From contig CBDDFN010000020.1 of the NCBI GenBank assembly GCA_965227065.1, forward strand, positions 411,471 through 475,470: a DNA stretch of 64,000 bases, in the 5' to 3' direction. A program made the position numbers and the translations under genes. Under the pieces are notes generated by a model that was not told the origin of the DNA, made no database searches, and was given only the letters and a program-made list of their open reading frames with translations. Source of the stretch: Alphaproteobacteria bacterium. Its GTDB lineage: Bacteria > Pseudomonadota > Alphaproteobacteria > SPJN01. Positions 47,152 to 60,421 of this stretch are shown one piece after another (the first letter of the stretch is position 1; the number at the start of each line of letters is the position of its first letter).

Positions 47152-49731
47152 ATGGAACAGCAAGTCCAGCTTCAAGGGGCGCGGCGGGGTGCCGATCTCG
47201 CCTCCAGCTATGCGCCCATTCCCGGTGTCCATGATGAGATGATGGACGCCAATGGCACTTTGCGGCCCCATTGGACGGGATTGGTCGACGCGGTCAATAC
47301 CATGACCCAGAAGGAGCGGCGCAATCTTGGCGATCAGATCAACCGTCTGGTGCGCGAACATGATGTCGCCCATGACATTTTCGCCGATCCCGATTCGCCC
47401 AGTGAACCCTGGGCGGTGGACCTCTTCCCGCTGATTTTTTCGCCTCAGGATTGGGCGGTGCTGGAACCGGCCCTTTTGCAGCGCGCGCGGCTGGCCAATG
47501 CTTTGCTGGGCGATATTTACGGGCCGCAACGAACCTTGAAGACGGGCCTTGTGCCGCCCGCCATGATTTTTAATGACCGGCATTTTGCACGGCCTGCTTA
47601 TGGTATCGCCCCGCGGTCGGGCTATGTGCAGTTCTTTGCGGTTGATGTCGTCCGCTCCGCCGAAGGGCAGTGGCAAATTGTCGATTGCCACACCGAAACT
47701 CCGGCCGGGCCGGGTCTGGCGCTCGCCAATCGGGTGATCACCGCCCAGACGCTGCCCAACCTGTTCCGCACCTGCAAGGTGGTGCGGCTGGCGCGCTATT
47801 TTCAGGCCATGCAGGCCGAGCTTGCCCGCCGCGCCGGCCGGGCCGATCCGCGCATTGCGCTGATCACGCCGGGCGCGCATCACGATGATTATTTCTCCCA
47901 CGCCTATCTGGCGCGCTATCTCAACTTCTTTCTGGTTGAGGGCGGTGATGTGCAGATTGTCGGCTCCCGCGCGTTTTTGAAGACGCTGGAAGGGCTGAAA
48001 TCGATTGATCTGATCGTGCGGTGTGCCGAAGGCATTTACAGCGACCCGCTTGAGCTTGATCCGTCGGGCTTTCTGGGCCCTGTCGGACTGTTACAAGCCT
48101 GCCGGACGGACACGGATTTTGTGGTCAATCCGATCGGCTCAGCGGTGGCGGAAAATCGTGGCCTGTCGCCCATTATGGGCGAGCTTGCGCGGGAGCTGCT
48201 CAATGAGGATTTGCTGATCCCCGATGTGCCGCGCGTGTGGCTCGGCGATCCTGGTGCACGGGACTATGTGCTGCAAAATCTCGACCGCTATATCATCAAG
48301 CCTGCCCAGGAAGGGACGGGACGCGCTGGTCATGGGGCCGGTGGGATTGTCGGCGCCGAACTTGATGAGGCCGCCCTTGAGGAGCTGAAGACCCGCATCA
48401 GCCTGTTTGGCGCAGAATATATCGCCGATGAAATCCGGCCCGTCGGCACAACGCCGAGCCATGGCCCCAAAGGACTTGAGCCGGTGCCGTTTATGGCGCG
48501 GCTTTATGTGTCGATGACGAGTGAAGGCTTTGCAGTGCTGCCCGGTGGTCTGTCGCTGACAGTGGGCGCTGATACAGCCAGCCTGCCCAAAGGTCCCGAA
48601 GGTCATTCGCGCGATGTCTGGGTGATCGCCGGTGAAGAAACACCCGCCGGCTTCCAGCCCAATCCGCCAACCGCTGAAACAGCGCGGATAGAGCGCTCCA
48701 GCCGGGGGCTGCAAAGCCGGGTGGCTGACAATCTGTTCTGGCTGGGCCGCTATGTCGAACGCGCCGACTGGGTCTTGCGGATGGAGCGGTCCGCCTTGCA
48801 CCGGCTTGAAAATGAGGAGCGGGACGGCGAGGGGCTCGCTTCGGTCAAAGCCGCGCTTGATCTGTTGCTCGACAAGGATGTCAGCACGCTCAAACCCTTG
48901 CCCGATGAGCCGCTCGGCTCGGCGGTCGAGGCCCGCATGCGTGCCTTGTTTGAAACCCCTGACCACGCCTTTTCGGTCCGCAATACTCTGGGCAATGTGC
49001 ACCAGGTTGCGGCCATGACGCGCGACCGGCTGTCATTGGAGGCGTGGCGGACGCTCAACACGTTCAACACCCATCCCGAATGGCGGCGCGAACGCATGCC
49101 GGTCAGCCCGCGGGTGGCGCTTGAACAGTTTGAATCGGGCATCACCACCATGGCGGCCTTTTCGGGCATGGCGGTTGAAAACATGACCCGCAATTATGGC
49201 TGGCGCTTCATGGATATGGGGCGGCGGATTGAACGGGCGCAGCATCTGTCGGAATTGCTGTCGACCCTGTTCCGCGAACCCAACTCCGATGAGACCCGCG
49301 AAGCCGAAGATTTGCTGTTCGTGCTGGAACTGGCCGACAGTTATATCACCTACCGCTCGCGCTACCGCTTTGCGCCGGCCTTGCCGCTGGTGCTGGACCT
49401 GTTGCTGATTGATGAGACCAATCCGCGCTCCATCGCCTTCCAGCTGCATCATATTGCCCAGCATCTTGATGCACTGCCACTGGCGGCCAAGGATGCGGTG
49501 CGCGAGGATGATCAGCGCAAGATCCTGATGATGCTGACGGCGGTTCGCCTGGCCGACGTCAATGATTTGAGTGAGACGGACGATGAGGGTGAGCGATCCG
49601 ATCTCGCCGCATTGTTTGATGCGTTGATCACCGGCCTGCCTGAATTGTCCGAAATTGTCACGCGGCGGTATCTGTCGCTGACGGAGGATATTCCCCGCCG
49701 TCTCTATACGCGTTTGGGGACACCGCTATGA
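47152..49731 (+). CDS. Circularly permuted ATP-grasp / alpha-E fusion (ATP-grasp motifs divergent)
   Basis: DEM...G.LRPHW, HAYLARYL, SRVADNLFWLGRYVERA, GRRIERA, DSYITYRSRY, NPRS. Confidence 0.9.
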   Translation: MEQQVQLQGARRGADLASSYAPIPGVHDEMMDANGTLRPHWTGLVDAVNTMTQKERRNLGDQINRLVREHDVAHDIFADPDSPSEPWAVDLFPLIFSPQDWAVLEPALLQRARLANALLGDIYGPQRTLKTGLVPPAMIFNDRHFARPAYGIAPRSGYVQFFAVDVVRSAEGQWQIVDCHTETPAGPGLALANRVITAQTLPNLFRTCKVVRLARYFQAMQAELARRAGRADPRIALITPGAHHDDYFSHAYLARYLNFFLVEGGDVQIVGSRAFLKTLEGLKSIDLIVRCAEGIYSDPLELDPSGFLGPVGLLQACRTDTDFVVNPIGSAVAENRGLSPIMGELARELLNEDLLIPDVPRVWLGDPGARDYVLQNLDRYIIKPAQEGTGRAGHGAGGIVGAELDEAALEELKTRISLFGAEYIADEIRPVGTTPSHGPKGLEPVPFMARLYVSMTSEGFAVLPGGLSLTVGADTASLPKGPEGHSRDVWVIAGEETPAGFQPNPPTAETARIERSSRGLQSRVADNLFWLGRYVERADWVLRMERSALHRLENEERDGEGLASVKAALDLLLDKDVSTLKPLPDEPLGSAVEARMRALFETPDHAFSVRNTLGNVHQVAAMTRDRLSLEAWRTLNTFNTHPEWRRERMPVSPRVALEQFESGITTMAAFSGMAVENMTRNYGWRFMDMGRRIERAQHLSELLSTLFREPNSDETREAEDLLFVLELADSYITYRSRYRFAPALPLVLDLLLIDETNPRSIAFQLHHIAQHLDALPLAAKDAVREDDQRKILMMLTAVRLADVNDLSETDDEGERSDLAALFDALITGLPELSEIVTRRYLSLTEDIPRRLYTRLGTPL

Positions 49732-50639
49732 TCTATGAAGTCTCGCATCGCACGATCTACCATTACGGCTCGCCGGTGGCGCGCTCGCACCATCTGGTGC
49801 ATCTGGCCCCCCGCACAGTGCGCCATCAGACCAATTTGAACCATTTGCTGACGGTTGAGCCCGCGCCGGCAACCCGATCGGACCTGATCGATTATTTCGG
49901 CAATCCCGCCTCAGTCCTGACAATTGATACCGAGCATAAATCGCTTGGCTTTCATGCCCGTTCGGTGATCGAGGTGCGGCCGCGCGAGGCGGTGTTCCTG
50001 GCCGCCACCAGCCCGTGGGAGCATGTGGCTGGCCGCCTGCATCAAAAGAGCAATTCCTATGATCTGGGCGTGCTGCATTATGCGTGCGTGTCGCCGCACA
50101 CACGGCCCAATGCCGACATCAAAGCCTATGCCATGGAAAGTTTCGGGCAGGGCCGTCCGCTGCTTGAGGCGGTCTCTGAACTCAACGCCCGGATCAATGA
50201 GGACTTTGCCTATGACCCGGCGGTGACCGATGTCACCACCTCGGTTGATGAAGTGTTCGAAATCCGTGGCGGGGTCTGTCAGGACTTTGCCCATTTTGCG
50301 CTGACCTGCCTGCGGGCACTTGATCTGCCTGCGCGCTATGTGTCGGGCTATCTGCTCACCCATCCGCCCGAAGGCCAGCAAAAACTTCTGGGCGCGGATG
50401 CAACCCATGCCTGGTTCTCGGTGTGGAGCCCTGAAACAGGCTGGATTGATTTTGATCCGACCAACAATCTGATGCCGTCCGACGAACATATCACCATCGC
50501 CTATGGCCGTGACTTTGGCGATGTCAGCCCGATTGGCGGCGTGCTGCTGGGCGGCGACGATCATTCGGTCGAGGTCGGCGTCGATGTCACCCCTGTGCAA
50601 GAAGGCAACATGCCGGGCTGGGCCACCACCGGCGCCTGA
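49728..50639 (+). CDS. Transglutaminase-like protein with bacterial N-terminal domain
   Basis: H.T.Y.Y, DYFGN, GVCQDFAH, ARYVSGY, THAW, FDPTN, GRDF.DVSP. Confidence 0.93.
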   Translation: MIYEVSHRTIYHYGSPVARSHHLVHLAPRTVRHQTNLNHLLTVEPAPATRSDLIDYFGNPASVLTIDTEHKSLGFHARSVIEVRPREAVFLAATSPWEHVAGRLHQKSNSYDLGVLHYACVSPHTRPNADIKAYAMESFGQGRPLLEAVSELNARINEDFAYDPAVTDVTTSVDEVFEIRGGVCQDFAHFALTCLRALDLPARYVSGYLLTHPPEGQQKLLGADATHAWFSVWSPETGWIDFDPTNNLMPSDEHITIAYGRDFGDVSPIGGVLLGGDDHSVEVGVDVTPVQEGNMPGWATTGA

Positions 50640-51860
50640 TCACTGTTGTGATGTTTCCACGGCCTCACCAATTGCGCGAAACAGGGCAAGGGTTTCCATC
50701 TCCCGCCAGCTGGTCTCATCATCGGTGGTGCCATAGTCGGAATTGGCCGACAGTTTGACGATGGTCAGCCCGCGCGAGGGGTTCACATAGACAAATTGGT
50801 TATAGACCCCGATGGCCGAATATTCACCTTCAAGGCTTTCGGGCACCCACCATTGATAGCCATAGCCGAATGGGAAATCGGGGTTGACGCCCGGTGCCAG
50901 ATGGGGCGCATCGGGGGTGACTGATGCAGTGATCCAGTCGGCGGGAACGATCTGGCGGCCATTGAAATAGCCTCCATTGCGGTAGAGTTCGCCGATCTTG
51001 GCATAGTCGCGCGCGGTGATCGACAAGCCGCCAAACACCATCTCCATACCTTCGCTGTCGACAAGCCAATGGCCGGTTTGTTCTGCGCCCATGGGGTGCC
51101 ACAGCTTTTCGGTCATATACTGCGTCACCGACCGGCCGGTGGCGCGCGTCAGCAACAGGCCCAGAACCTGGGTTTCGGCGGAATTATAGCGATAGTGGGT
51201 GCCGGGTTCGCGGTCCGGCTTCATGGTGGTCAAAAACTCATTGAGCGAACCGCCGACGGCAAAGATCTGACCAAAGCGCATGACATCGGAATTGGGGTCG
51301 CTGTAATCTTCGGTCCAGGCGGCCCCTGATGACATTTGCAGAATGTCTTTGATGGATACGCCATCATAGGCTGAGCCCTTGAGGGAGGGTGCATACACGG
51401 TCACCGGATCATCAATGGACTGGATGCGGCCTTCAGAGACCGCAATACCGACCAGCGTCGCCACAAAACTTTTGGACACCGACATGGACAACCAGGTGAC
51501 GTCGCGGCCGCCGGTCAGCCAATAATTTTCGTAAACTATTTTTCCGTCTTTCAGCACCACAAGCGCGGCCGTGTCGGTCTCTTTGAGGAACTGGTCGGTG
51601 TCGCTGTCGGCATCCTTGTAGCGAAAGTGTGCAGGCAGGGTGACAGGGGCGGCGGTTTCGAAACTGTAAGGCGTGGGCGAGGGGGTCAGCACCGCATTGG
51701 GGAATAGCTCATCCACCCGGTTAAAGCGCTCATATTGTTCCGCGCCGGTAAACAAGGTTGTGACGAAATAAAGCCGTTCGAGCCGGTCTTTGAAAATCAC
51801 GCCTGCGCCCAGCAGCACGACCAGAACGGCCACCAGACCGATCAAAATTTTTCGCAGCAT
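50640..51860 (-). CDS. Membrane-anchored serine hydrolase, beta-lactamase/class C esterase family
   Basis: SVSKS (SxxK), YNS, KLW.P.G, YGYQWW; N-terminal TM anchor. Confidence 0.88.
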   Translation of the reverse strand: MLRKILIGLVAVLVVLLGAGVIFKDRLERLYFVTTLFTGAEQYERFNRVDELFPNAVLTPSPTPYSFETAAPVTLPAHFRYKDADSDTDQFLKETDTAALVVLKDGKIVYENYWLTGGRDVTWLSMSVSKSFVATLVGIAVSEGRIQSIDDPVTVYAPSLKGSAYDGVSIKDILQMSSGAAWTEDYSDPNSDVMRFGQIFAVGGSLNEFLTTMKPDREPGTHYRYNSAETQVLGLLLTRATGRSVTQYMTEKLWHPMGAEQTGHWLVDSEGMEMVFGGLSITARDYAKIGELYRNGGYFNGRQIVPADWITASVTPDAPHLAPGVNPDFPFGYGYQWWVPESLEGEYSAIGVYNQFVYVNPSRGLTIVKLSANSDYGTTDDETSWREMETLALFRAIGEAVETSQQ

Positions 51861-52031
51861 TGCTTCCCCCCTCAGAATGGCGAGCACCATAGAGGAAGGC
51901 TGTATGACGGAAAAGTGGTCAGCGGTCCGGCAACAGCATGAACTTTCCAAAACCTCGGGTTCAATAGATAAGGGCCTATCTGTTTAAAAATCGCGAAAGA
52001 ATACAAAAGTATTCATGATCAATATTGTCCA

Positions 52032-52089
52032 TTGAAAGAATCAAATCATTAAATACTATAGTTAATATTATTCTTTGACGAGCTGGAGG
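52032..52089 (+). promoter_or_regulatory. Putative sigma70 promoter and RBS of the island operon
   Basis: TTGAAA-N16-TACTAT in an AT-rich stretch; GGAGG just upstream of the ATG at 52095. Confidence 0.4.
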
Positions 52090-52094
52090 GGGTC

Positions 52095-52283
52095 ATGAGG
52101 GGGGTAATGTTTGGTGTGGCGATCGCGATTTGTTGTGCGGTCTACAACCCTGTTTTTGTGTACATGCGTGACGTTCCGGGGCTTTTCCTTGGCGCGCCGC
52201 CAATCCTTCTGGGCGGCATCGCCGCCAGTGTTGTGTTGCTGATCGCGTTAGGCATTCTCGTCACTTTTGATAAGAGGCCGTGA
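52095..52283 (+). CDS. Small two-TM protein, SSS-transporter partner-like
   Basis: 62 aa, two hydrophobic helices around P.LFLG.P; TGATG coupling to the symporter. Confidence 0.7.
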   Translation: MRGVMFGVAIAICCAVYNPVFVYMRDVPGLFLGAPPILLGGIAASVVLLIALGILVTFDKRP

Positions 52284-53743
52284 TGTCATTGTTCGGATGG
52301 GTGATGATTTTTGCGGTGCTCTATGTGTTTTTTTTAGCGTGGAGCGCACGCAAGGCGCGGCAGATCAATGCCGGAGAAGCGCATGAAGATGCCTTCGCGG
52401 CCAGCGGAATTGGGCCGGTTCTGCTGTTCTTATCGTTCTCGGCAACATTGTTCAGCACATTTACCCTCATGGGGATTCCCAATTATTTTCGCGTTCACGG
52501 TGTAGCGACCTGGCTATTCATCGGTGTGACTGATGTGGCGCTTGGATTTGTCGTTTATCTTTTTGGTTGCCGATACAAAGAGGCGCTGCAAGCGCATGGG
52601 ATCCAGTCGATGACAAGCTTGTTGCGGCTGCGTTTTGGGACGTCAGTGTCTCGTTTCGTCTACATTGCCGGGATTTACATTTTCCTGGCTCCGTATCTGG
52701 CAATCCAGATCAAAGGGGTTTCCGATCTGTTTGTGCAGATCACGAATCCAGATGTGCCGCCGGTGTTCTGGTCAGTTCTGATGCTCGCAGCGATTGGTGT
52801 TTACAGTTGGGTCGGTGGATTCCGGGCTATCGTTTTCAGTGATGTGGTTCAGGGACTGATATTGTTGGTCGTGGTTTGGCTCATCGCGGCTGCTGTAACG
52901 GATCAATTTTCTGATGTTCCTTCAATATTTGAAACGATCAGGACTGAACGTCCAGAACTGCTGACGGCACCGGGACCCGTCGGGCTCATGAGCTACCAGT
53001 TTGTGCTGGCTTCGTTTCTTGCGATTCTATGGATGCCACTAACGCAACCACAATTGACAACACGCATCGCGGCGTCGCGAAATGCTCGTTCAGTGCCTCT
53101 GATGGCCTTGGGCGTCTCGTTCTTCGCGCTGGTCATGCTTGTGCCGACGATCCTTATCGGACTTTATGGTGCCGCTACACTTGACCCGGCTTATTCAAGT
53201 TCAGGATTTTTGGCGCGCGTCTTGATCGATGACAGACTTCCTATCATCGGTGCCCTGTCTATTGTGGGATTGGTTGCTGCGGCTATGTCGACTGCGGACA
53301 GTCAGCTTTTCGCATTGGGAACTGAGACACAGGTGGCCGCTGCAGAAAGCGAACAGGAAATTACACTCACTCAAAATCGGATTGTCACAGCAGTCTTCGC
53401 AATCGTGTGTTTGCTACTGTCTTTGCTTGCGAACGCTGAGTTGGTGAGTTTGGCTCGCGTTAGTTTTGCGGGCACCGCCATTATGGGGCCAATGATCGCG
53501 CTGGCAGTGTGGGGGCGGCGGAAATACTCAATCGTCAATCCTGTCGTCACAGGCATTGCCCTGCTCGTGTTCATGGCTTCAGCTACCAACCTGATACCGA
53601 ACACCGTGCTGGGCATCCGCCTCGACTTAATCCTATTTGCTGTCACTGCAACATGTTGCTTCGCTGAGTATCGCCTCACACGTGTGACGGCAGCGAAGCT
53701 CAAAAGCGTTCACGCGGTCGAAGAGGTTCGGACTGATGTTTGA
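52283..53743 (+). CDS. Sodium:solute symporter (SSS) family protein
   Basis: ATLFSTFT.MG.P, Y.AIQ..G, GGFRAIVFSDVVQG, AAAMSTADSQL; many TM segments. Confidence 0.9.
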   Translation: MSLFGWVMIFAVLYVFFLAWSARKARQINAGEAHEDAFAASGIGPVLLFLSFSATLFSTFTLMGIPNYFRVHGVATWLFIGVTDVALGFVVYLFGCRYKEALQAHGIQSMTSLLRLRFGTSVSRFVYIAGIYIFLAPYLAIQIKGVSDLFVQITNPDVPPVFWSVLMLAAIGVYSWVGGFRAIVFSDVVQGLILLVVVWLIAAAVTDQFSDVPSIFETIRTERPELLTAPGPVGLMSYQFVLASFLAILWMPLTQPQLTTRIAASRNARSVPLMALGVSFFALVMLVPTILIGLYGAATLDPAYSSSGFLARVLIDDRLPIIGALSIVGLVAAAMSTADSQLFALGTETQVAAAESEQEITLTQNRIVTAVFAIVCLLLSLLANAELVSLARVSFAGTAIMGPMIALAVWGRRKYSIVNPVVTGIALLVFMASATNLIPNTVLGIRLDLILFAVTATCCFAEYRLTRVTAAKLKSVHAVEEVRTDV

Positions 53744-55319
53744 TCCGTCACTGACCGAATATCTGAAGGCTGTGTCGAACAGTTATTCGAGGCGAGGACC
53801 ACTGACCCGAGCATTCATGATAATTTCCATGGCGTGCGCTGGATATGTGGCCCTTGTCGTTGCCATCAGTTCCGCCGTTTCCGAAAAGAGTTCTGCGGTT
53901 GGTGCGGCGCAAGTCTGGCAAGTTCTTCATCTTTCTCAGACACCAGCGGTGATGGCGTTTTCCGTGGCGTTTCTTGTCTCAACCGTCGGATTGATCTTGG
54001 CTTTTATGCCCCCTGAAATTGAATCGAGAAGCGCTGGTGAGGGCTATTTTCGGGGAGGGCGAGAGACGCTGACCGGTGGCGACAGAGGTAATGATGATGC
54101 CAGTATGGCGCCAAAGCCGCTGCCGGTTCGGTTTCCCGATACATTCCAGGTTTTTGTTCTGTTGCCCCTGTCGGGCGAGGCAAAAGGAGATGGTCTGTTG
54201 CAGGCCGCTGGAATCTTGGCGGGAGCCAAACTTTCGACCAAAGTGAATGTTGAATTTGCAGACCATGCCAACAACGCAAACACCGCTGCTCGCCTTGTCG
54301 AGGACTATTTGGTTCGCAGCCTGGTTCATCCGCGAGGCCCCGTCTGGGTGATTTGCACCATGAGCGGTGTTGCATCACGTGTTCGAGATGTGGTTCGAGA
54401 TCACATCGATGCCAATCCCGAAGTCGACAAATATCTGACAGTGTTCTTTACGGTTGCCGCCGACCCGTCAGCTCCGCACGAACCAGAATTGGGCGTGATC
54501 CGCTATTCCATCGACTGTCGCGACGAGGTGTTCGGAATCATGAATACGATTGAGAACAAGCTGGCAGATGACCCCACCATCCCGATCATGGTCGTTCAAT
54601 GTGAAAACGACTATTCACAAGCGACCGTCCGGCTATTGACGTCTTCGCTTGCGTTGGCACAGCATAATTTTATCCAGCTTCACCACGTCAGAGATGAGCA
54701 AGGTGGATCAGAAATCATAAACCGCCATGATCCGAATTTTCGAGTCCCGGATCGTCCTGCGATTGCGGTTGTCGCGGGGTATGATCTCGAGCTGTTTGAA
54801 ATTTTCGCAAAGCTGACACAAGAAGGTTTCAAAGGGTGGGTTGTGACGCCGGCGACATTGTCGGTGCCCGACTGGCAAAGCTATCTGCTCAATCAGGAAA
54901 ATCTAAATCCCCCCGGCGTTCAATATCAATGCCTCGCATTCGCCGAACCCGACCCCGCAGTGAGCCGTACTTTTCATAACAATCTCAACCACTATGATTT
55001 TCTGACTGTCACCAGTTCCCAACTTGTGTTTCGGGATGATTTTGGCTCTCCAGCTCGAAGTCGGTTCAATGCGCTTGAGCAGGAAGTCTACAGATCAATT
55101 GAGCCAAATTATATTTCGGCGCTGTGTTTTGATTGCATGCGTGTCATTCAGGCCTGTTTTCGGATGCAACTGATGCGTTTCCGCTCACTGGAAGAAATTG
55201 CGGATGAAATTGTGAACGACCCCGGCCCATTCGGAGGATGGGACTATGTTGCAGGCAACGGCTACAGCTTCTTCAAGCCTAATGCGCCCCTCAACACCCA
55301 GCGCGTGAGCCGCTTGTGA
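53736..55319 (+). CDS. Two-TM protein fused to a type-1 periplasmic-binding-protein-like (LivJ-like) domain
   Basis: Two N-terminal hydrophobic helices; VLLPLSGEAKGDG, VEFADH...A, TMSGV, VIRYS.D, ENDYS, VVAGY, GFKG, Y.SALCFD follow the LivJ-family motif order. Confidence 0.65.
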   Translation: MFDPSLTEYLKAVSNSYSRRGPLTRAFMIISMACAGYVALVVAISSAVSEKSSAVGAAQVWQVLHLSQTPAVMAFSVAFLVSTVGLILAFMPPEIESRSAGEGYFRGGRETLTGGDRGNDDASMAPKPLPVRFPDTFQVFVLLPLSGEAKGDGLLQAAGILAGAKLSTKVNVEFADHANNANTAARLVEDYLVRSLVHPRGPVWVICTMSGVASRVRDVVRDHIDANPEVDKYLTVFFTVAADPSAPHEPELGVIRYSIDCRDEVFGIMNTIENKLADDPTIPIMVVQCENDYSQATVRLLTSSLALAQHNFIQLHHVRDEQGGSEIINRHDPNFRVPDRPAIAVVAGYDLELFEIFAKLTQEGFKGWVVTPATLSVPDWQSYLLNQENLNPPGVQYQCLAFAEPDPAVSRTFHNNLNHYDFLTVTSSQLVFRDDFGSPARSRFNALEQEVYRSIEPNYISALCFDCMRVIQACFRMQLMRFRSLEEIADEIVNDPGPFGGWDYVAGNGYSFFKPNAPLNTQRVSRL

Positions 55320-55798
55320 GCACTCAAGGGTCATTGCAGCGGGCTCCGGTGTTGTTTTTGGGCGCCGCCTCTTCCAACGTACCCGAGCCATCACGGGGTG
55401 AATATCAAAGCTATGTAAAAGAGTTGGTCAGAATTTTGGCGGACTTTGAAGTGTTGGGTGGGGTAACAACGCCGGCGCCGATTGATCGCAGCAAAGATCT
55501 CAGATCTGACGACAAACGATTATATCAGTGGTATCGCGACCAGATATTGTCAGCGGACTTGTTTTTGGCGGAGATGACACACCCTTCGTTCGGTCTTGGA
55601 ATTGAGCTTGAAATTGCCGCCGAAGGGAACGTACCCATCATTGTGACAAGCGTTTCACATTCTGCAAACGCTCGCATTTCCAGAATGGTGCTGGGTTTGC
55701 CCGGAATTGCGCACATCATTTCTTATTCAAGCTATCAAAAAGCATTGGCGGGTGTGCCGCGCGATTTGGCCGAGCGGCTTGCCACGCTAAGCTCATAA
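55316..55798 (+). CDS. Nucleoside 2'-deoxyribosyltransferase / DNPH1(Rcl)-like N-glycosidase
   Basis: ADLFLAEMTHPSFGLGIEL and ISRMVLG resemble DNPH1 ADVVVAEVTQPSLGVGYEL and LSAMIRG; GTGA overlap with the upstream gene. Confidence 0.8.
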   Translation: MSTQGSLQRAPVLFLGAASSNVPEPSRGEYQSYVKELVRILADFEVLGGVTTPAPIDRSKDLRSDDKRLYQWYRDQILSADLFLAEMTHPSFGLGIELEIAAEGNVPIIVTSVSHSANARISRMVLGLPGIAHIISYSSYQKALAGVPRDLAERLATLSS

Positions 55799-55853
55799 AT
55801 TGTGAGCGCAGCGTTTGTCTCGTCGTCCGCCAAGTTTGTATTTTTCGGGAGGA

Positions 55854-55928
55854 TGGCTCCCCGGGCCGGATTCGAACCAGCGACCGAGCGGTTAACAGCC
55901 GCTTGCTCTACCACTGAGCTACCGAGGA
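55854..55928 (-). tRNA. tRNA-Asn(GTT)
   Basis: Reverse complement TCCTCGGTAGCTCAG...GCGGCTGTTAACCGC...GTTCGAATCC...GGAGCCA. Confidence 0.97.
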
Positions 55929-56081
55929 TCACCGTCTTCAGGCAGGGCCAAGCCCCGCAACTGAGGTTGCGTGTATAGCAAAAGCGGTCTTGAAAAAACA
56001 AGCGGTTCTTTCGGGTTTTTTCCGGCGACAAAACTGCGCAGGGCGATGGCGCAAAGGCACAAAGCTGCTTACCTTCCCCTC

Positions 56082-56339
56082 ATGGCACCCAAGATCACAT
56101 TTGCTGGACGAAAGTTTCATTTGCCCGGCCGGCGCATCTACCGGCTGGGGCTCGGCATTGTGCTGATCATTGGCGGCATTTTGGGATTTTTGCCCGTGCT
56201 GGGTTTCTGGATGATCCCGCTGGGGGTGCTGGTTCTGTCCTATGACTTCCACACCATCCGGCGCGGCCGCCGCCGCTTTGCCGTCTGGTGGGGCAAGAAA
56301 TTCCGCAAGTCCCAGGGTCAGGCCCAAGACGAGGTTTAG
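56082..56339 (+). CDS. Small conserved alphaproteobacterial membrane protein
   Basis: GIVLIIGGILGFLPVLGFWMIPLG; start uncertain. Confidence 0.7.
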   Translation: MAPKITFAGRKFHLPGRRIYRLGLGIVLIIGGILGFLPVLGFWMIPLGVLVLSYDFHTIRRGRRRFAVWWGKKFRKSQGQAQDEV

Positions 56340-57355
56340 GGAACAAGCACAAGCTTGCCCGCAATTTCTCCCACACCGAGCCGTTCGTGGGCGCGGGCTG
56401 CGTCTTGCAATGGGACGCGGTCGGCCACTTGGGGGTTGAGTTTGTCCAGTGCCAGCAGCTCAAACAGGTTTTCCAGATCAGCCCGGTACCAATCGGGCCG
56501 GGCATGGCTGAGCCGCCAGACATCATAGCCCGCAAAACTCTGGTTCTTTTCCATCAGCTTGAGACCCGACGGCTTGGGCTGCTTCAACATGCCTTTGATG
56601 GCAGAGGGCATGTGCCGCCGCCCATTCTTGAAGGCCGCAGAAAAACCGTAGGCGACAAGCCGGCCGCCATCGCGCAGGGCCGCGAAAGACCGGTTCCAGT
56701 GATCCCCGCCAATGGCGTCAAAGACGGCATCGGCGCCGCCGGCATCCTGCATTGCGGCGACAAAATCAGTGGAACGATAATCAATCGCGGTGGCGTCGCG
56801 CGCCTCGACCAGCGCGCGTTTGGCGGGTGAAACAGTGGCCCAGGCTTCAAGGTCGAGCAATCGGGCGCATTCGAGCAGTGCGGTCCCAACCCCGCCACCG
56901 CCGCCATGCACCAGAATGCGCTCGCCTGCGGCGACACGCGCGGTGCGGGTGAGCATTTGCCAGGCGGTCAGATAGTTCAAAATGAGCGAGACGGCCTGTG
57001 CGGCATCCACTTTTGCGGGGCAGCGCGCCACGCGGGCGGCGGGCAGGGCAATGTGGCTGGCGTAGGAGCCGGTGCGGGTCAGCGCGCCGACCCGGTCGCC
57101 GATTTTGAGGTCTGAAACCGAATCACCCAGTGCCACAATATGGCCGACACAGTCATATCCCGGCACAAAGGGGAAGGGCGGGGCTTCGGGATAAAGGCCC
57201 TCCCGCATGACAATATCGGCAAAGGCGACCCCGGCGGCCTCGATCTCCACCACCACATCTTGGGGCCCCGGATGGGGCATGGCAGCCTGATGGGGGCTCA
57301 AAACGCCCGGTCCGCCGCGCTTTTCATAGCGAATTGTGGTGATGGTTTCGGTCAT
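56336..57355 (-). CDS. Medium-chain dehydrogenase/reductase, quinone oxidoreductase/VAT-1-like
   Basis: GGPGVL, AAGVAFAD...R.G.Y, PGYD..G, VHGGGGGVG, GKLVL. Confidence 0.88.
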   Translation of the reverse strand: MTETITTIRYEKRGGPGVLSPHQAAMPHPGPQDVVVEIEAAGVAFADIVMREGLYPEAPPFPFVPGYDCVGHIVALGDSVSDLKIGDRVGALTRTGSYASHIALPAARVARCPAKVDAAQAVSLILNYLTAWQMLTRTARVAAGERILVHGGGGGVGTALLECARLLDLEAWATVSPAKRALVEARDATAIDYRSTDFVAAMQDAGGADAVFDAIGGDHWNRSFAALRDGGRLVAYGFSAAFKNGRRHMPSAIKGMLKQPKPSGLKLMEKNQSFAGYDVWRLSHARPDWYRADLENLFELLALDKLNPQVADRVPLQDAARAHERLGVGEIAGKLVLVP

Positions 57356-57435
57356 GCTCTGTCCCCCGATTATCCCGTAAATCTGGCGGTTTTTGCACAT
57401 TTTACAAGCGCGGGGCGCTCAAAATGCCGAGAAAT

Positions 57436-57509
57436 TGGAGGCCACGCCCGGAATCGAACCGGGGTATACGGATTTGCAATCCGCTGCGTCACCACTCCGC
57501 CACGTGGCC
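57436..57509 (-). tRNA. tRNA-Cys(GCA)
   Basis: Reverse complement GGCCACGTGGCGGAG...CGGATTGCAAATCCG...GTTCGATTCC...GGCCTCCA. Confidence 0.96.
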
Positions 57510-57670
57510 AGTCCACTTCTCATCGGAAGGACGCGCTATTTAACAGAGAGGTGACACTTGTGCAACGCGGCGGAATGGCCTTTGCGAAAAATTGTGAACA
57601 GCGGTATAAACCGCTGGAAATGTGGGCTTCTCTTGGAGGAGTCCGTCAGCCCCAAGGGTGCGGAGCGGCA

Positions 57671-58324
57671 ATGTCGGACTTTTTACAACAACGTAATTCA
57701 ATGGTTGATGGCCAGATCAGGCCCAACGGTGTGACCGATCCGCGGATCACGGACCGCATGCGCGCTGTTCCGCGTGAATTTTTTGTGCCCAAGCAAAAGC
57801 AGGCCATCGCCTATATGGACGAGGTGATCGAGATCGCGCCGGGCCGCTTTGCGATGGAGCCGATGTTTCTGGCCAAGCTTATCCAGGCGCTTGATGTTGA
57901 GCCGACCGACAGCGTGCTGATCATTGGCGCAGGGCTCGGATACAGCGCCGCGGTTCTGGGCGGGCTGTGCGATACGGTCATCGGCCTTGAAGAGGATGAG
58001 GCGCTCGCCCAGGCGGCCAGCGATGGGTTGCCCGAACGCGGTGTGGACAATGCCGCCATCGTAACCGGGCCTTTGGTGGACGGCTTTGCCAGCCAGGCGC
58101 CCTATGATGTCATTATGATCGATGGCGCTTATGAAACAGTTCCCGATAGTTTGCTTGAGCAATTGGCCGAGGATGGCCGGCTGGGCGGTATTCGGGTGGA
58201 TGGCCGGTCTGGCCAGGCTGAGATCTACGTCAAGTCTGACGGGGTTGTGTCGAAACGTGTGGCGTTTGATGCCGTCGTCCCGGTTCTGCCGGGATTTGAT
58301 GCGCCGCGCAGTTTTGTTCTTTGA
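57671..58324 (+). CDS. pcm: Protein-L-isoaspartate O-methyltransferase family
   Basis: R..MVDGQIRPNGV.D, VPRE.FVP, IGAG.GY..A, APYDVI; upstream of tolC. Confidence 0.9.
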   Translation: MSDFLQQRNSMVDGQIRPNGVTDPRITDRMRAVPREFFVPKQKQAIAYMDEVIEIAPGRFAMEPMFLAKLIQALDVEPTDSVLIIGAGLGYSAAVLGGLCDTVIGLEEDEALAQAASDGLPERGVDNAAIVTGPLVDGFASQAPYDVIMIDGAYETVPDSLLEQLAEDGRLGGIRVDGRSGQAEIYVKSDGVVSKRVAFDAVVPVLPGFDAPRSFVL

Positions 58325-58349
58325 GGAATTCGGAAGAGGGGGTGCCATT

Positions 58350-59786
58350 ATGGCTTATCTGACGAAGAAATCCCGGCCGGTGCAGGCGCTGGGTATTATG
58401 GGTGCGGCCCTGTTGTGGACCGCTCCGGCGAGCGCGGACATGACGCTCGATGAGGTTCTGGCGATCGCCTATACCAACAATCCGACCATTCAGGCCCAGC
58501 GGGAGCAGGTGCGTTCTGCCGATGAGCAGATCGCCGAAGCGTTTGCAAGCTTCCTGCCCAGCGTTGAGGTGACCGGTACGATCACCAAAGCGTGGACCCA
58601 CAACAGCAAGGGCAAAATCAAAACCGGTGATTTTGGTTTTCCCGGCTTCAACATTCCGATCCCGAGCTCGGATTCAGAAAGCAATCCCCGCGCGCTGACC
58701 ACCACGATTGATCAGCCGATCTTTACCGGCGGCCGCAATATCAACGCGATGAAACAGGTGCGCGCCTCGGTGCAGGGCAATCGTGCGCAGCTGACCGATG
58801 TTGAGCAGCAGATTTTCTTGCAGACGGTCGCAGCCTATATGGACGTGATCGCCAACCAGTCGGTTGTTGAGCTCAATGAAAACAATGTCAAAGTGCTTGA
58901 CCAGCAGCGCACGGCGACGCAAGACCGCTTTGATGTCGGCGAATTGACCCGGACCGACGTGGCCCAGGCCGAAGCCCGACTGTCGGGTGTGCAATCACGC
59001 CTGATCGCCGCTGAAGCGGATCTGCGCGGTGCAGAGGCTGCGCTGGCCAAGCTGATTGGTGCCGAAGTGGATGCGCTCACCGATCCGGCCACCTTGCCCG
59101 CGACCCCTGAAACAGAAGACACCGCCCAGGAGCTGGCGCGCGATCTGTCGCCGCAAGTTATTGCCGCCCGTGCTTTCGCCGAAGCGGCTAAAAGCGCCAT
59201 CAAGGTGGCGGGCGGCGAATGGCTGCCCACCGTGTCGGTGCGCGCGCAGCTTGAATATTCGCGGGACACTTCCGCGCTTTCGAGCATTTTCAACCAGACG
59301 ACTTGGACGCGCTCTGTGTCGGGTGTGCTGAACTGGAAGTTCTTCCAGGGCGGCGCGGTCCTGTCGCGGATGCGTCAGGCGCAGTTTGATGCCGCCCGCG
59401 CGCGCACCCAGATTTCGGAAGCCGAACGCGCGTCAGCCGAAGCGGTCACCAATGCCTGGACCGGCCTGAAAGCCGCCAAAGCAACCATCCGCGCGTCGCA
59501 AGCGGCTGTGGACGCCAACGAAATCGCGCTTGAAGGTGTGCGTCAGGAAGCCGATGTCGGGGCCCGGACCACGCTGGATGTGCTTGATGCCGAGCAGGAA
59601 TTGCTGGATTCGCGCGTGACACTCGTTCAGGCGCGCCGCAACGAAGTTGTGGCCACCTATCAGCTTCTGGCCGCGACCGGCCAGCTGACGGCCGGATATC
59701 TTGATCTGCCGGTTGAGCAGGCGGTTGTCACCAATCGCGCCGATGGCCTGTTCAACTTCTCGTCTGCGTCAGACGCAAGCGAGTAA
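58350..59786 (+). CDS. tolC: TolC family outer membrane channel
   Basis: AY.NNP, QPIF.GG, RFDVGELTRTDVAQAEARL, GARTTLDVLDAEQEL. Confidence 0.92.
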   Translation: MAYLTKKSRPVQALGIMGAALLWTAPASADMTLDEVLAIAYTNNPTIQAQREQVRSADEQIAEAFASFLPSVEVTGTITKAWTHNSKGKIKTGDFGFPGFNIPIPSSDSESNPRALTTTIDQPIFTGGRNINAMKQVRASVQGNRAQLTDVEQQIFLQTVAAYMDVIANQSVVELNENNVKVLDQQRTATQDRFDVGELTRTDVAQAEARLSGVQSRLIAAEADLRGAEAALAKLIGAEVDALTDPATLPATPETEDTAQELARDLSPQVIAARAFAEAAKSAIKVAGGEWLPTVSVRAQLEYSRDTSALSSIFNQTTWTRSVSGVLNWKFFQGGAVLSRMRQAQFDAARARTQISEAERASAEAVTNAWTGLKAAKATIRASQAAVDANEIALEGVRQEADVGARTTLDVLDAEQELLDSRVTLVQARRNEVVATYQLLAATGQLTAGYLDLPVEQAVVTNRADGLFNFSSASDASE

Positions 59787-59794
59787 AGCCCGCC

Positions 59795-60421
59795 ATGAGC
59801 ACCGAGCCCGAGGCCAGCGTCGAAGACATTCTCGCGTCGATCCGCAAGATCATCGCGGAGGATGACGCGCGCGAGGCTGGCCAGCAATCCGGGCCCGATG
59901 CTCACGCGCCTCAGGCCGATGGTGCGCCCGGGCACGCCAATGGGGGCGAGGCGGAGATGGAACCGTCAGCTCCGCAGGGGCGGCCGTCTGATTTTCAGGC
60001 GAGTGCCCCGCCACCACCTTTGCCGCGCTCCAACGGGGATGTGCTGACACTGACGCGCATGGTTCGCGACGATGGATCGATTGAGGAGCTGGCCGCTCAG
60101 AAGGTGGACCAATCGCCTGTCGATGAGACCGGACAGGTTGAAGAGGCGTTGGGCTATGTCGAACAGGCCGCCCCGGCGTCTGAAGACATCGCCAATGATT
60201 TCAATGACGGGCTGATTGATCCTGATGCGGCGCAGTCGGTCACTGTTTCCTTTGCGAGCCTTGAGGCGGCCATGGCCGATCAGCTGGGTGCCGATGTCGG
60301 CAACGACCAGATTGAACTGATTGCCCGGCCGATGATTAAAGACTGGCTCGACGCCAATCTGCCCGGGCTGGTAGAACGCGTCGTACGCGAAGAAGTTGAA
60401 CGCCTGGCGCGCCGCCGTTAA
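59795..60421 (+). CDS. popZ: Polar organizing protein PopZ (DUF2497)
   Basis: N-terminal EDILASIRKIIAED, P/E/D-rich linker, C-terminal RPMIKDWLDANLP.LVE..VREE. Confidence 0.9.
   Translation: MSTEPEASVEDILASIRKIIAEDDAREAGQQSGPDAHAPQADGAPGHANGGEAEMEPSAPQGRPSDFQASAPPPPLPRSNGDVLTLTRMVRDDGSIEELAAQKVDQSPVDETGQVEEALGYVEQAAPASEDIANDFNDGLIDPDAAQSVTVSFASLEAAMADQLGADVGNDQIELIARPMIKDWLDANLPGLVERVVREEVERLARRR

What the first reader, a model, noticed from the sequence alone, without database searches (positions are those of the whole stretch)
52095..55798. Candidate undescribed system: small membrane protein + SSS symporter + 2TM-LivJ-like sensor + NDT/DNPH1-like N-glycosidase
Seen: four genes with overlapping stop/start codons (TGATG, 8-nt overlap, GTGA) on a foreign-looking islet beside a tRNA. 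Established: SSS carriers do not need binding proteins; NDT-fold enzymes are structurally related to TIR domains and occur in nucleotide-based conflict systems; 2TM-plus-sensor proteins are the effector layout in CBASS, Pycsar and Thoeris type II. I do not recognise this combination. Hypothesis A: the glycosidase makes a nucleotide-derived signal, the 2TM protein senses it and acts at the membrane, and the symporter imports the signal or its precursor, possibly between cells. Hypothesis B: uptake, sensing and breakdown of an unusual nucleoside, cobamide base or nucleoside antibiotic.
Basis: partly seen in the sequence, partly recalled or inferred. Interest (0 to 1): 0.85.

Follow-up and report, generated by a model that had tools for sequence, protein, structure and literature searches.

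The report
Transporter, tethered binding protein, N-glycosidase operon
A small, horizontally acquired four-gene operon couples a two-part sodium symporter to a rare membrane-tethered binding protein and a nucleotide-cleaving enzyme, and its relatives elsewhere always pair that binding protein with a nicotinamide-degrading enzyme, pointing to vitamin B3-type chemistry rather than a classic phage-defence system.

Summary
Four translationally coupled genes (52095-55798) lie on a low-GC islet that ends 55 nt from tRNA-Asn.

- g1+g2 form a two-part SSS symporter. A g1-like ORF abuts the symporter gene in 139 of 160 related loci.
- g3 has a two-helix membrane anchor and a LivJ/LivK-type fold. Its family is very rare: 3 relatives among 5.8 billion proteins.
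- g4 has the NDT/DNPH1 fold with the catalytic Glu.

New evidence concerns the g3 family. In all 7 g3 loci outside this lineage whose downstream DNA I could read, g3 sits between a secondary transporter (SSS in 5, MFS in 2) and a nicotinamidase-like gene. In one of these it is fused to that gene. Here the NDT-like gene fills that slot. g2 falls in an SSS clade that also holds pncB-linked loci.

My best reading (about 0.4) is a transport, bind and convert module for nicotinamide or a nicotinamide nucleoside or nucleotide.

Against plain NAD salvage: 0 of 5 hosts of g3-PncA modules, and 0 of 4 genomes of this family, carry a PncB/NadV-type gene. Some g3 loci lie among defence genes, so a conflict role is not excluded. 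PADLOC matches none of the four proteins.

The parts
51951..55853 (.). Low-GC islet between a - strand 436-aa ORF (50640-51950) and the 3' end of tRNA-Asn
   Evidence: GC is 0.49-0.55 against 0.57-0.65 in the flanks. No g3 or g4 homologue was found in 60 relatives. In G001 and G002, relatives of the same family, tRNA-Asn and the small membrane gene beyond it are kept but the ORFs on the islet side are different; G003 also keeps both, but its islet side was not read.
52032..52059 (+). Promoter-like site (TTGAAA-16-TACTAT) in the AT-rich leader before g1
   Evidence: Consensus scan, 9 of 12 matches. This is a pattern match only. No Rfam riboswitch was found in 51700-52400.
52095..52283 (+). g1: 62-aa small hydrophobic protein, probable small subunit of the symporter
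   Evidence: No Pfam or NCBIfam match of its own. Jackhmmer seeded with g1 finds a homologous small ORF abutting the symporter start in 139 of 160 related loci. One such ORF (L051) gives weak DUF3311 and DUF4212 matches below cut-off.
52283..53743 (+). g2: sodium:solute symporter family (SSS) transporter, 486 aa from the ATG (487 from the GTG at 52280)
   Evidence: PF00474 at 44.3 bits against a cut-off of 22.8. panF, sss and PutP models all score far below their cut-offs. There are 701 relatives among the 8000 scored candidates, at up to 57% identity. It lies inside a 46/47-leaf clade (support 0.996/0.974) that holds every g3-, pncB- and NUDIX-linked locus.
53736..55319 (+). g3: 527-aa protein with an N-terminal two-helix membrane anchor (about residues 26-44 and 63-90), a ~45-residue low-confidence linker and a type-1 periplasmic-binding-protein fold (about 137-527)
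   Evidence: AlphaFold model with pLDDT 63.3 and pTM 0.62, about 70-84 over most of the two lobes. Foldseek top matches are 3td9 LivK at 6.8e-11 and 4gnr LivJ. The Atlas's nearest clusters are Peripla_BP_6. It has only 3 relatives in 5.8 billion proteins.
55316..55798 (+). g4: 160-aa NDT/DNPH1-family N-glycosidase or transferase-like protein
   Evidence: Model with pLDDT 94 and pTM 0.88. Foldseek matches are CtNDT, human DNPH1 (TM 0.83 on the target), MilB and BcmB. phmmer against DNPH1 gives E 0.015, with GIELE aligned to GYELG. Of 56 aligned relatives, 47 match PF05014. E97, S91 and G93 are conserved in 90% or more of sequences, and G95 and G127 are invariant.
55854..55928 (-). tRNA-Asn (GTT), the right border of the islet
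   Evidence: ARAGORN. It is 91-100% identical to copies in G001-G003.

Best explanation
The locus is a horizontally acquired 'transport, bind, convert' operon for a small pyridine compound of the vitamin B3 type: nicotinamide itself, or its riboside or mononucleotide.

Proposed roles:
- g1+g2 form a two-subunit Na+/solute symporter that brings the compound in.
- g3 is anchored in the inner membrane by a helical hairpin. Its LivJ-like ligand-binding domain most likely faces the cytoplasm. There it captures the imported ligand beside the transporter and hands it to, or controls, the enzyme encoded next.
- In every other lineage found, that enzyme is a nicotinamidase-like hydrolase, once fused to g3. 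In this lineage it is g4, an NDT/DNPH1-family enzyme. g4 would cleave, or exchange the base at, an N-ribosidic bond using its conserved Glu.

Shown: the gene structures, the folds, the conserved order transporter, g3, hydrolase, and the clade membership of g2.

Inferred: the ligand class, the cytoplasmic orientation, contact between g3 and g4, and the physiological purpose. The purpose is unlikely to be classical Preiss-Handler salvage.
For: 1. g3 relatives lie directly downstream of the transporter gene in 5 of 160 fetched symporter loci (L010, L025 with two copies, L028, L089, L116). They also lie downstream of an MFS transporter in 2 further genomes (L186, L187).
2. In all 7 loci the next reading frame is an isochorismatase-family hydrolase (PF00857, E 1e-24 to 4.5e-35 for the six separate genes). 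Four were tested further, and three of these have solved nicotinamidases as their best PDB matches and NF008623 as their best NCBIfam model (below its cut-off): L010 (1ilw 2e-42, NF008623 2e-32), L186 (1ilw 2.4e-48, NF008623 163.9 of 174 bits) and L187 (NF008623 127 bits, no PDB search). The fourth, L089, has as best PDB match a chain titled isochorismatase (6a8l/5zn8, 2.3e-20), with nicotinamidases 3s2s and 3o90 next, and biuret amidohydrolase as its best NCBIfam model.
3. In L116 the g3-like part and the start of the isochorismatase domain share one open frame of 545 aa that runs to the contig end.
4. P0155 and P0161, close relatives of g2, share their longest-contig lengths (116170 and 12107) and sources with the g3 relatives P0003 and P0002.
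5. In a FastTree of 184 symporters, g2 lies in a 46/47-leaf clade (support 0.996/0.974). This clade holds all 5 g3 loci and all 3 loci with a nicotinate phosphoribosyltransferase gene next to or near the symporter (L012, L099, L120; NF006695 2.5e-171 for L012; L120 also has a nicotinamidase, 2wt9 1.5e-47). It holds none of the GFO/SDR sugar-type loci.
6. g4 keeps the catalytic Glu and the PSxGxGxE motif. The Asp that DNPH1 uses (D80, the residue mutated in PDB entries 8rps and 8rpt) aligns to Tyr69 of g4, next to Trp68.
7. Charge counts around the anchor place the binding domain in the cytoplasm, or are compatible with that, in 10 of 12 family members, most clearly in L010, L116, L186 and L187. 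The partner hydrolases begin their Pfam domain at residues 2-11, so they carry no signal peptide.
8. Operon integrity is kept at about 8% nucleotide divergence, with no gaps in the four genes.
Against: 1. No g4-like gene occurs in any of the 160 symporter loci or in 400 other genomes of the phylum. The link between g4 and the system therefore rests on this lineage alone.
2. The hosts of g3-PncA modules have NadA (5 of 5) but no NAPRTase-family gene (0 of 5 with PF04095, 0 of 5 with PF17767). The window's family has neither PncA nor PncB/NadV (0 of 4 each). Nicotinate or nicotinamide produced by the module has no known route into NAD in these genomes.
3. The three Bacteroidota hydrolases (L025, L028, L089) score biuret amidohydrolase slightly above nicotinamidase in NCBIfam, all far below cut-off.
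4. In L089 and L028 the loop between the two anchor helices carries 11 and 9 Lys/Arg. This argues for a periplasmic binding domain there.
5. Other members of the g2 clade have unrelated neighbours: 9 with NUDIX and 6 with housekeeping genes.
6. No NAD-type riboswitch was found.
7. The ligand was never tested.
Confidence: 0.4

Rival explanations
1. The module takes up and breaks down some other small amide, nucleoside or nucleotide-like compound, as a nutrient or for detoxification. On this reading g3 is a general ligand-trapping accessory whose specificity differs between lineages, and the nicotinamidase-like partners are simply one kind of cysteine amidohydrolase.
For: g2 is only 35-45% identical to the fetched g3-, PncA- and PncB-linked symporters. 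The Bacteroidota hydrolases score about equally for biuret amidohydrolase, nicotinamidase and RutB, all far below cut-off. g4's nearest solved relatives act on dNMPs, hmdUMP, CMP and hmCMP. Hosts lack PncB, so nicotinate has no obvious use.
Against: The hydrolases of L010, L186, L187 and L120 have nicotinamidases as best PDB and NCBIfam matches (E down to 2.4e-48). Three loci of the same symporter clade carry pncB.
Confidence: 0.25
2. The module belongs to NAD-centred conflict with phages. It removes nicotinamide (PncA versions) or NMN/NAD-type molecules (the g4 version). Phages then cannot rebuild NAD+ after NAD-depleting immunity. Alternatively it tunes the nicotinamide pool, with g3 as the membrane sensor.
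For: The distribution is patchy and island-like: 3 of 301, 1 of 301 and 1 of 61 genomes, each count including the query genome. The window copy has low GC and lies beside a tRNA. PADLOC on 54 neighbour proteins of the seven g3 loci finds type IIG RM (5e-277), MTase_II (2.4e-261), PDC-M11A (1.5e-173), type I MTase and PglW/PglX-like proteins. L089 has FRG and GmrSD_N genes upstream, and L028 has DUF2971 downstream. PncA without PncB makes no sense for salvage. Remote g4 relatives sit in a variable region of P1-like phage-plasmids. Phage NAD+ reconstitution from nicotinamide is in print (abstracts listed).
Against: None of the four window proteins matches PADLOC. The window's own flanks are not defence genes. 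I could not tell which g3 loci carry the PADLOC hits, and I have no background rate, so no enrichment is shown. SSS and AAHS-type MFS carriers are importers, which a nicotinamide-clearing defence does not obviously need. One search's listing showed nicotinamidase and anti-phage together in only one paper, one occurrence each, on viral communities.
Confidence: 0.15
3. g4 makes a nucleotide-derived signal, g3 is a 2TM effector that senses it and damages the membrane, and the symporter imports the signal between cells.
For: g3 has two N-terminal helices and a ligand-binding domain. The NDT and TIR folds are related (recalled, not tested). There is a faint S_4TM match at E 0.46.
Against: The S_4TM match is at chance level (10.2 bits against 26.9). 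In 7 of 7 other loci the partner enzyme is an amidohydrolase, which does not make nucleotide signals. No cyclase, TIR or other signal synthase lies nearby. There are no PADLOC matches.
Confidence: 0.05

Closest known systems
Niacin salvage operons (NiaP, NiaX, NiaY or PnuC transporters with pncA, pncB or nadR)
   Same: A transporter gene sits next to a nicotinamidase or a nicotinate phosphoribosyltransferase. In the g2 clade, 6 loci carry a PncA-like gene and 3 carry pncB. Two g3 loci use an MFS carrier of the aromatic acid:H+ type.
   Different: Passages of PMC2330246 and PMC6593275 name only NiaP, NiaX, NiaY and PnuC as B3 or NR transporters. They mention no SSS carrier and no binding protein. 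The window has no pncA or pncB. Hosts of g3-PncA modules lack PncB/NadV.
Binding-protein-dependent secondary transporters (TRAP, TTT) and LivJ-type ABC binding proteins
   Same: A type-1 binding-protein fold is encoded beside a secondary carrier. The fold match to LivK/LivJ is clear.
   Different: That TRAP and TTT use secreted periplasmic binding proteins is recalled, not tested. g3 has no signal peptide. It has a two-helix anchor, and charge counts mostly point to a cytoplasmic domain. There are no ABC, TRAP or TTT membrane genes nearby. It is fused once to a cytoplasm-type hydrolase.
AmiC, the cytoplasmic LivJ-like amide sensor of Pseudomonas (recalled, not tested here)
   Same: It is a LivJ-fold protein that binds a small amide inside the cell and works with an amidase operon.
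   Different: AmiC is soluble and controls an antiterminator. g3 is membrane-anchored and is always next to a transporter. AmiC was not among the listed Foldseek matches.
DNPH1/Rcl, MilB, BcmB and nucleoside 2'-deoxyribosyltransferases
   Same: The fold (TM up to 0.83 on the target), the PSxGxGxE motif with the nucleophile Glu, and a Ser-x-Met stretch aligned to DNPH1's SAM.
   Different: g4 scores below the PF05014 cut-off (15.5 against 28.8 bits). DNPH1's Asp80 aligns to Tyr69. By eye, the N-terminal GSIRGG-like loop (recalled from DNPH1) reads GAASSNVP. Its closest relatives (32-38% identity; P0005-P0009) form a subfamily of their own, four of the five sharing an APIDRS/LYxWY motif.
Small-subunit SSS symporters (DUF3311 or DUF4212 proteins with SSS carriers; YhdT-PanF is recalled)
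   Same: A 60-95-aa hydrophobic ORF abuts the symporter gene in 139 of 160 loci. One homologue gives weak DUF3311 and DUF4212 matches.
   Different: g1 itself matches no Pfam model. Scores against panF are far below cut-off (65.7 against 328 bits).
2TM-sensor effectors of CBASS, Pycsar and Thoeris II
   Same: Two N-terminal helices plus a ligand-binding domain.
   Different: There is no PADLOC match and no signal-making enzyme. The sensor fold is a type-1 binding protein. SLOG, SAVED and Macro folds did not appear among the matches.

Membership tests
Sodium:solute symporter family (PF00474 / TIGR00813) | Score above the curated cut-off of the family model | tested here: met
   g2 scores 44.3 bits on PF00474 against a cut-off of 22.8. 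The TIGR00813 superfamily model gives only 60.1 bits against 184.
PanF (TIGR02119), PutP (TIGR02121) equivalogs | Score above the equivalog cut-off | tested here: not met
   65.7 against 328 bits for PanF and 54.8 against 515.5 bits for PutP.
Peripla_BP_6 / LivJ-type binding proteins | Sequence model above cut-off | tested here: not met
   12.6 against 31.7 bits. A profile of four sequences finds no PDB chain at E<=10.
Peripla_BP_6 / LivJ-type binding proteins | Two-lobe type-1 binding-protein fold | tested here: met
   At least 500 Foldseek matches at E<=0.001, led by LivK 3td9 and LivJ 4gnr, with TM 0.6-0.67 on the target. The model's pLDDT is only 63 overall.
Peripla_BP_6 / LivJ-type binding proteins | Secreted (signal peptide or lipobox) and encoded with ABC permease and ATPase genes | tested here: not met
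   The N-terminus is a two-helix anchor. No ABC genes lie in 48000-60000. No dedicated signal-peptide predictor was available.
NDT / DNPH1 (PF05014) | Sequence model above cut-off | tested here: not met
   15.5 against 28.8 bits. However, 47 of 56 aligned relatives match PF05014 at E<=0.01.
NDT / DNPH1 (PF05014) | Fold and catalytic Glu nucleophile | tested here: met
   Foldseek matches to CtNDT, DNPH1, MilB and BcmB. E97 aligns to the Glu of GYELG in DNPH1 and is conserved in 90% or more of 56 sequences.
NDT / DNPH1 (PF05014) | Acidic residue equivalent to DNPH1 Asp80 | tested here: not met
   Asp80 aligns to Tyr69 of g4 in the phmmer alignments to wild-type and D80 mutant chains.
Known anti-phage defence systems (PADLOC-DB 2.0) | Any component matching a defence model | tested here: not met
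   0 families at E<=1 for each of g1-g4. DefenseFinder was not available.
PncA-PncB (Preiss-Handler) niacin salvage | Nicotinamidase and nicotinate phosphoribosyltransferase present in the genome | tested here: not met
   G000 (96.9% complete) has no PF00857 and no PF04095 match. G001-G003 have none either.
g3 family (unnamed): anchor + type-1 binding fold between a transporter and a small hydrolase | Conserved motifs (LLP..GD..Q..G, TMS, R-F/Y, Y-D/G, TLS-V/I..W) and gene order transporter, g3, hydrolase | tested here: met
   The alignment of 10 sequences has 12 invariant columns. The gene order holds in 7 of 7 other loci and in the window.

The most novel reading that the evidence does not exclude
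g3 defines an undescribed class of cytoplasm-facing, membrane-tethered binding proteins. These proteins couple secondary transporters directly to an enzyme. In this operon g4 would be a new pyridine-nucleotide enzyme of one of two kinds. It could be an NMN/NAD-type glycohydrolase acting with g3 as a nicotinamide-pool control module that thwarts phage NAD+ reconstitution. Or it could be a PRPP-independent base-exchange enzyme that makes NMN or NaMN from imported nicotinamide or nicotinate, in a lineage that has no PncA, PncB or NadV.
Probability: 0.12. Interest if true: 0.85.

Novelty: new variant of a known kind. Interest (0 to 1): 0.6.

Why it matters
Passages of a 2019 survey state that known vitamin B3 transporters (NiaP, NiaX, NiaY) were confidently found in only about 25% of B3-auxotrophic gut genomes (PMC6593275). 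A symporter clade tied to pncA and pncB is therefore a candidate for part of the missing uptake systems.

The g3 family matches no curated family model in Pfam, NCBIfam or PADLOC. It appears to be a new way of using the binding-protein fold: tethered to the membrane, probably on the inside, between a carrier and an enzyme.

Two findings need a new explanation. The partner nicotinamidase occurs in genomes without any PncB or NadV. In one lineage an NDT-fold enzyme replaces it. Neither fits textbook NAD salvage. The answer may lie in metabolism or in NAD-centred conflict with phages. Simple uptake, binding and enzyme assays would settle it.

Tried and rejected
- Direct search for g3 loci in genome contigs and metagenome contigs with alignment A1 confirmed no relative (148 and 185 pattern matches). 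I then reached g3 loci through the symporter.
- No direct repeat of the tRNA-Asn end and no integrase were found. An integrative-element origin is therefore not shown.
- No riboswitch was found. Window 51700-52400 gave only a chance lncRNA hit at E 0.49. Ten related loci gave no Rfam match at gathering score.

NAD auxotrophy of the host. NadA, NadC, PnuC, PncA and PncB/NadV models find nothing in G000, whereas G001-G003 have nadA and nadC. I do not use this as evidence, for two reasons:
- Synteny with G001 places the expected nadC-nadB-nadA locus exactly between the starts of contigs C15 and C11. Both contigs begin inside genes.
- The source run holds the organism at a word depth of only 5.6 among 3.6 million contigs.
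Absence of these genes is therefore not established.

Other steps:
- Complex prediction with g3 residues 130-527 and g4 gave 'weak support'. The median score was 0.35 and the best of 3 controls 0.00. The runs agreed in at least 87% of contacts and the partner's pLDDT was at least 80. At scores of 0.60 or under, only 7 of 80 solved complexes passed, as did both passing mismatches of 110. I give it no weight either way.
- No RNA holder was listed for the islet.
- Runs X2 and X3 hold only scattered identical 151-nt pieces, so they add nothing on habitat or strain.
- g3 has no match in 72,556 plasmid records.
- Remote g4 relatives in viral contigs have no ISO, NAPRT or NUDIX neighbours by phmmer. 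Their upstream 346-aa partner has no PDB relative.
- Literature searches were made, plus passages of two papers. The listings showed no paper that links an SSS carrier with pncA, or nicotinamidase with phage defence. This covers only the held library and only what the listings show. Supplements were not opened.
- I could not see the contigs of P0001-P0003 or P0005-P0009. The gene that follows g3 in the closest relatives therefore remains unknown.

Full report
**Observation.** Their junctions read as described: TGATG between g1 and g2, ATGTTTGA between g2 and g3, and GTGA between g3 and g4. GC falls to 0.49-0.55 across the islet, against 0.57-0.65 on either side. tRNA-Asn (55854-55928, - strand) points its 3' end at the islet, 55 nt after the g4 stop. 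A promoter-like site lies about 35 nt before g1. I found no integrase and no repeat of the tRNA end.

**The four proteins.**
- g2 is a sodium:solute symporter family member (PF00474, 44.3 bits). It does not reach any equivalog cut-off (panF 65.7 of 328 bits).
- g1 (62 aa) has no family match of its own. A jackhmmer search seeded with g1 finds a homologous small ORF abutting the symporter start in 139 of 160 related loci. g1+g2 is therefore a conserved two-part carrier.
- g3's AlphaFold model (pLDDT 63.3, pTM 0.62) shows helices at 22-51 and 70-90, a disordered linker, and two alpha/beta lobes. The best Foldseek matches are LivK and LivJ binding proteins (3td9 at 6.8e-11, 4gnr at 2.3e-10). The Atlas's nearest clusters are Peripla_BP_6. 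By sequence the match is at noise level (12.6 of 31.7 bits).
- g4 folds with pLDDT 94 and matches a cyanobacterial NDT, human DNPH1, MilB and BcmB. phmmer aligns its GIELE to DNPH1's GYELG at E 0.015. In the same alignments DNPH1's Asp80 faces Tyr69 of g4.

**How rare the genes are.**
- With the single proteins, g3 and g4 were found in 1 of 61 genomes, and that one is G000 itself.
- Among 5.8 billion clustered proteins, g3 has three relatives: one at 96% identity and two at 34%. g4 has only itself.
- A full HMMER pass over 1.84 billion representatives gives g4 148 relatives at E<=0.001. Seven reach 1e-10 or better, and the best is at 38% identity. Of 56 aligned relatives, 47 match PF05014.
- A profile of these 56 sequences found only G000 among 401 genomes of the phylum.
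- Remote relatives (25-30% identity) occur in 8 viral contigs and 79 plasmid records, of which 71 are E. coli. In one P1-like record the gene follows a 'YaaC family protein' gene.

**Lineage history.**
- G001-G003, of the same family, keep tRNA-Asn and the small membrane gene to its right. In G001 and G002 the ORFs on the islet side are different; G003's islet side was not read.
- A Logan contig of another study (run X4) is about 92% identical over 50600-55887. It shows 437 substitutions, and its 17 gap letters all lie outside the four genes.
- The operon is therefore older than this species and is kept intact. This is the same lineage, though, and not an independent occurrence.

**Symporter neighbourhoods.**
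- g2 has many relatives: 701 at E<=0.001 among the 8000 scored candidates. I fetched 80 genome loci and 80 metagenome loci at 35-45% identity and called ORFs in them.
- Most loci carry a sugar-type operon: about 460 aa, about 275 aa, a GFO/IDH/MocA oxidoreductase, an SDR, the small ORF and the symporter. A GH106 enzyme often follows.
- A FastTree of 184 symporters places g2 with its 11 closest metagenome relatives (support 1.0). This group lies inside a clade of 46/47 leaves (support 0.996/0.974) that holds no sugar-type locus.
- The 23 fetched loci in that clade break down as follows:
  - 5 have g3 relatives.
  - 3 have a nicotinate phosphoribosyltransferase gene next to or near the symporter: L012, L099 and L120. 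NF006695 scores 2.5e-171 for L012. L120 also carries a nicotinamidase (2wt9, 1.5e-47).
  - 9 have an RppH-like NUDIX gene.
  - 6 have unrelated neighbours.

**The g3 family.**
- An HMM of g3 and its three relatives hits the ORF directly after the symporter in L010, L116, L089, L028 and L025. L025 has two tandem copies.
- In each case the next frame is an isochorismatase-family hydrolase. In L116 the two parts share one 545-aa open frame that runs to the contig end.
- A wider profile (A5) found the family in 3 of 301 genomes of the class of L010's host, and in 1 of 301 of the order of L028's host. Both counts include the query genomes.
- The two new loci read MFS carrier, g3, hydrolase. The carrier is nearest the aromatic acid:H+ symporter model, below its cut-off. 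The hydrolases are the most nicotinamidase-like of all: NF008623 at 163.9 and 127.3 bits against a cut-off of 174, and 1ilw at 2.4e-48.
- The hydrolase of L010 matches a solved nicotinamidase (1ilw, 2e-42). That of L089 is closest to a chain titled isochorismatase (6a8l/5zn8, 2.3e-20), with nicotinamidases 3s2s and 3o90 next.
- The constant unit is therefore g3 plus a nicotinamidase-like enzyme, and the carrier type varies.
- P0155 and P0161, close relatives of g2, share their longest-contig length and source with the g3 relatives P0003 and P0002. I read this as two more symporter-g3 pairs. It is an inference, because the contigs could not be fetched.

**Topology of g3.**
- Lys/Arg counts around the anchor put the C-terminal domain in the cytoplasm most clearly in L010, L116, L186 and L187.
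- The window protein and its three close relatives have N-flanks with 3-4 Lys/Arg and no acidic residues. This also favours a topology with both termini inside, although their C-flanks are acidic.
- L089 and L028 have 11 and 9 Lys/Arg in the loop between the helices, which points the other way.
- The partner hydrolases start their Pfam domain within the first 2-11 residues, so they have no signal peptide. The L116 fusion places both domains in one compartment.
- I therefore favour a cytoplasmic binding domain, but this remains an inference.

**NAD gene inventory.**
- G000 (96.9% complete) gives no match for isochorismatase, NAPRTase, NadA, QRPTase or PnuC. It does have a CinA/PncC-type gene.
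- G001-G003 have nadA and nadC, but no NAPRTase and no isochorismatase.
- The tempting conclusion, an auxotroph rescued by the islet, does not stand. Synteny with G001 puts the expected nadCBA locus exactly between the starts of contigs C15 and C11, and both begin inside genes. The organism also sits at a depth of only 5.6 in a run of 3.6 million contigs.
- A more robust and more puzzling result comes from the five searchable hosts of g3-PncA modules. All have NadA (5 of 5). None has an NAPRTase-family gene by either of two models (0 of 5 with each). A nicotinamidase without PncB or NadV does not feed NAD synthesis by any known route.

**Defence check.**
- None of g1-g4 matches PADLOC.
- Among 54 neighbour proteins of the seven g3 loci, PADLOC finds type IIG RM, methyltransferases, PDC-M11A, PglW/PglX-like proteins and others.
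- Pfam finds FRG and GmrSD_N upstream in L089 and DUF2971 downstream in L028.
- I could not assign all the hits to loci and I have no background rate, so this is a lead and not an enrichment.

**Mechanism.** The reading that fits most of the evidence has four parts:
- A carrier brings in a small pyridine compound.
- The tethered g3 domain binds it at the membrane.
- The adjacent enzyme converts it. That enzyme is a nicotinamidase elsewhere and the NDT-fold g4 here.
- g4 keeps the nucleophile Glu. It has Trp68-Tyr69 where DNPH1 has its Asp. This would suit a substrate whose base leaves without protonation, such as a pyridinium. That is inference from chemistry and was not tested.

The purpose is open. 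It could be salvage by an unknown route, clearance of nicotinamide, or interference with phage NAD+ rebuilding. The last process is described in abstracts listed. A complex prediction for the g3 domain with g4 gave only weak support (0.35 against 0.00 in controls), and I do not lean on it.

**Literature.**
- Passages of PMC2330246 and PMC6593275 name NiaP, NiaX, NiaY and PnuC as the known B3 and NR carriers. They state that such carriers were confidently detected in only 25% of B3 auxotrophs of a gut reference set.
- Four searches listed nothing that ties an SSS carrier or a binding-protein-fold gene to pncA.
- I read listings and passages only, and no supplements.

**Limits.**
- The ligand is untested.
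- The link from g4 to the system rests on one lineage.
- The contigs of the closest g3 and g4 relatives could not be seen.
- The g3 model is of moderate confidence.

Noticed in passing
G000 contigs C15 (start) and C11 (start); L169 8747-12284: The nadC-nadB-nadA cluster of relative G001 has no counterpart in the G000 assembly. Its flanking genes map to the very starts of contigs C15 and C11, which face each other across an assembly gap. Absence of de novo NAD synthesis therefore cannot be concluded.
   Followed up: partly
L089 3755-5638; L028 13209-14621; neighbours of L010, L025, L028, L089, L116, L186, L187: Some g3 loci lie among defence-type genes. FRG and GmrSD_N sit upstream in L089 and DUF2971 downstream in L028. 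PADLOC hits among 54 neighbour proteins include type IIG RM at 5e-277, MTase_II at 2.4e-261 and PDC-M11A at 1.5e-173.
   Followed up: partly
L188 2955-4504 (E. coli plasmid pEC258-2) and L172-L179: Remote g4 relatives (25-30% identity) in P1-like phage-plasmids and viral contigs directly follow a ~346-355-aa gene annotated 'YaaC family protein', sometimes with start/stop overlap. The pair lies between 'maturation control protein' and 'N-6 DNA methylase' genes. The YaaC-like protein has no PDB relative by sequence.
   Followed up: partly
L033, L036, L112, L114, L119, L124, L125, L129, L159: Nine symporter loci of the same clade have a NUDIX (RppH-like) gene after the small ORF and symporter. 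Where the upstream DNA is held, most also show an epimerase and an HAD hydrolase gene before them (L033: NF001936 2.6e-37).
   Followed up: no
L051 and most of L009-L168: Outside the g2 clade, the small ORF plus symporter sits in a conserved sugar-type operon with a GFO/IDH/MocA oxidoreductase and an SDR. A GH106 alpha-L-rhamnosidase-family gene often follows.
   Followed up: no
L025 6943-9361: Two tandem g3-like genes (399 and 402 aa) lie between the symporter and the hydrolase. The first has a single predicted anchor helix.
   Followed up: no
window 47152-50639: Two long + strand ORFs (859 and 303 aa) overlap by 4 nt just left of the islet's neighbour gene. I did not annotate them.
   Followed up: no
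G000 contigs C9 (end) and C18 (start); C10 (end) and C7 (end): The last 22 nt of C9 equal the first 22 nt of C18. C10 and C7 share a 999-nt identical inverted end. The assembly breaks inside unique sequence, as expected for low depth.
   Followed up: no
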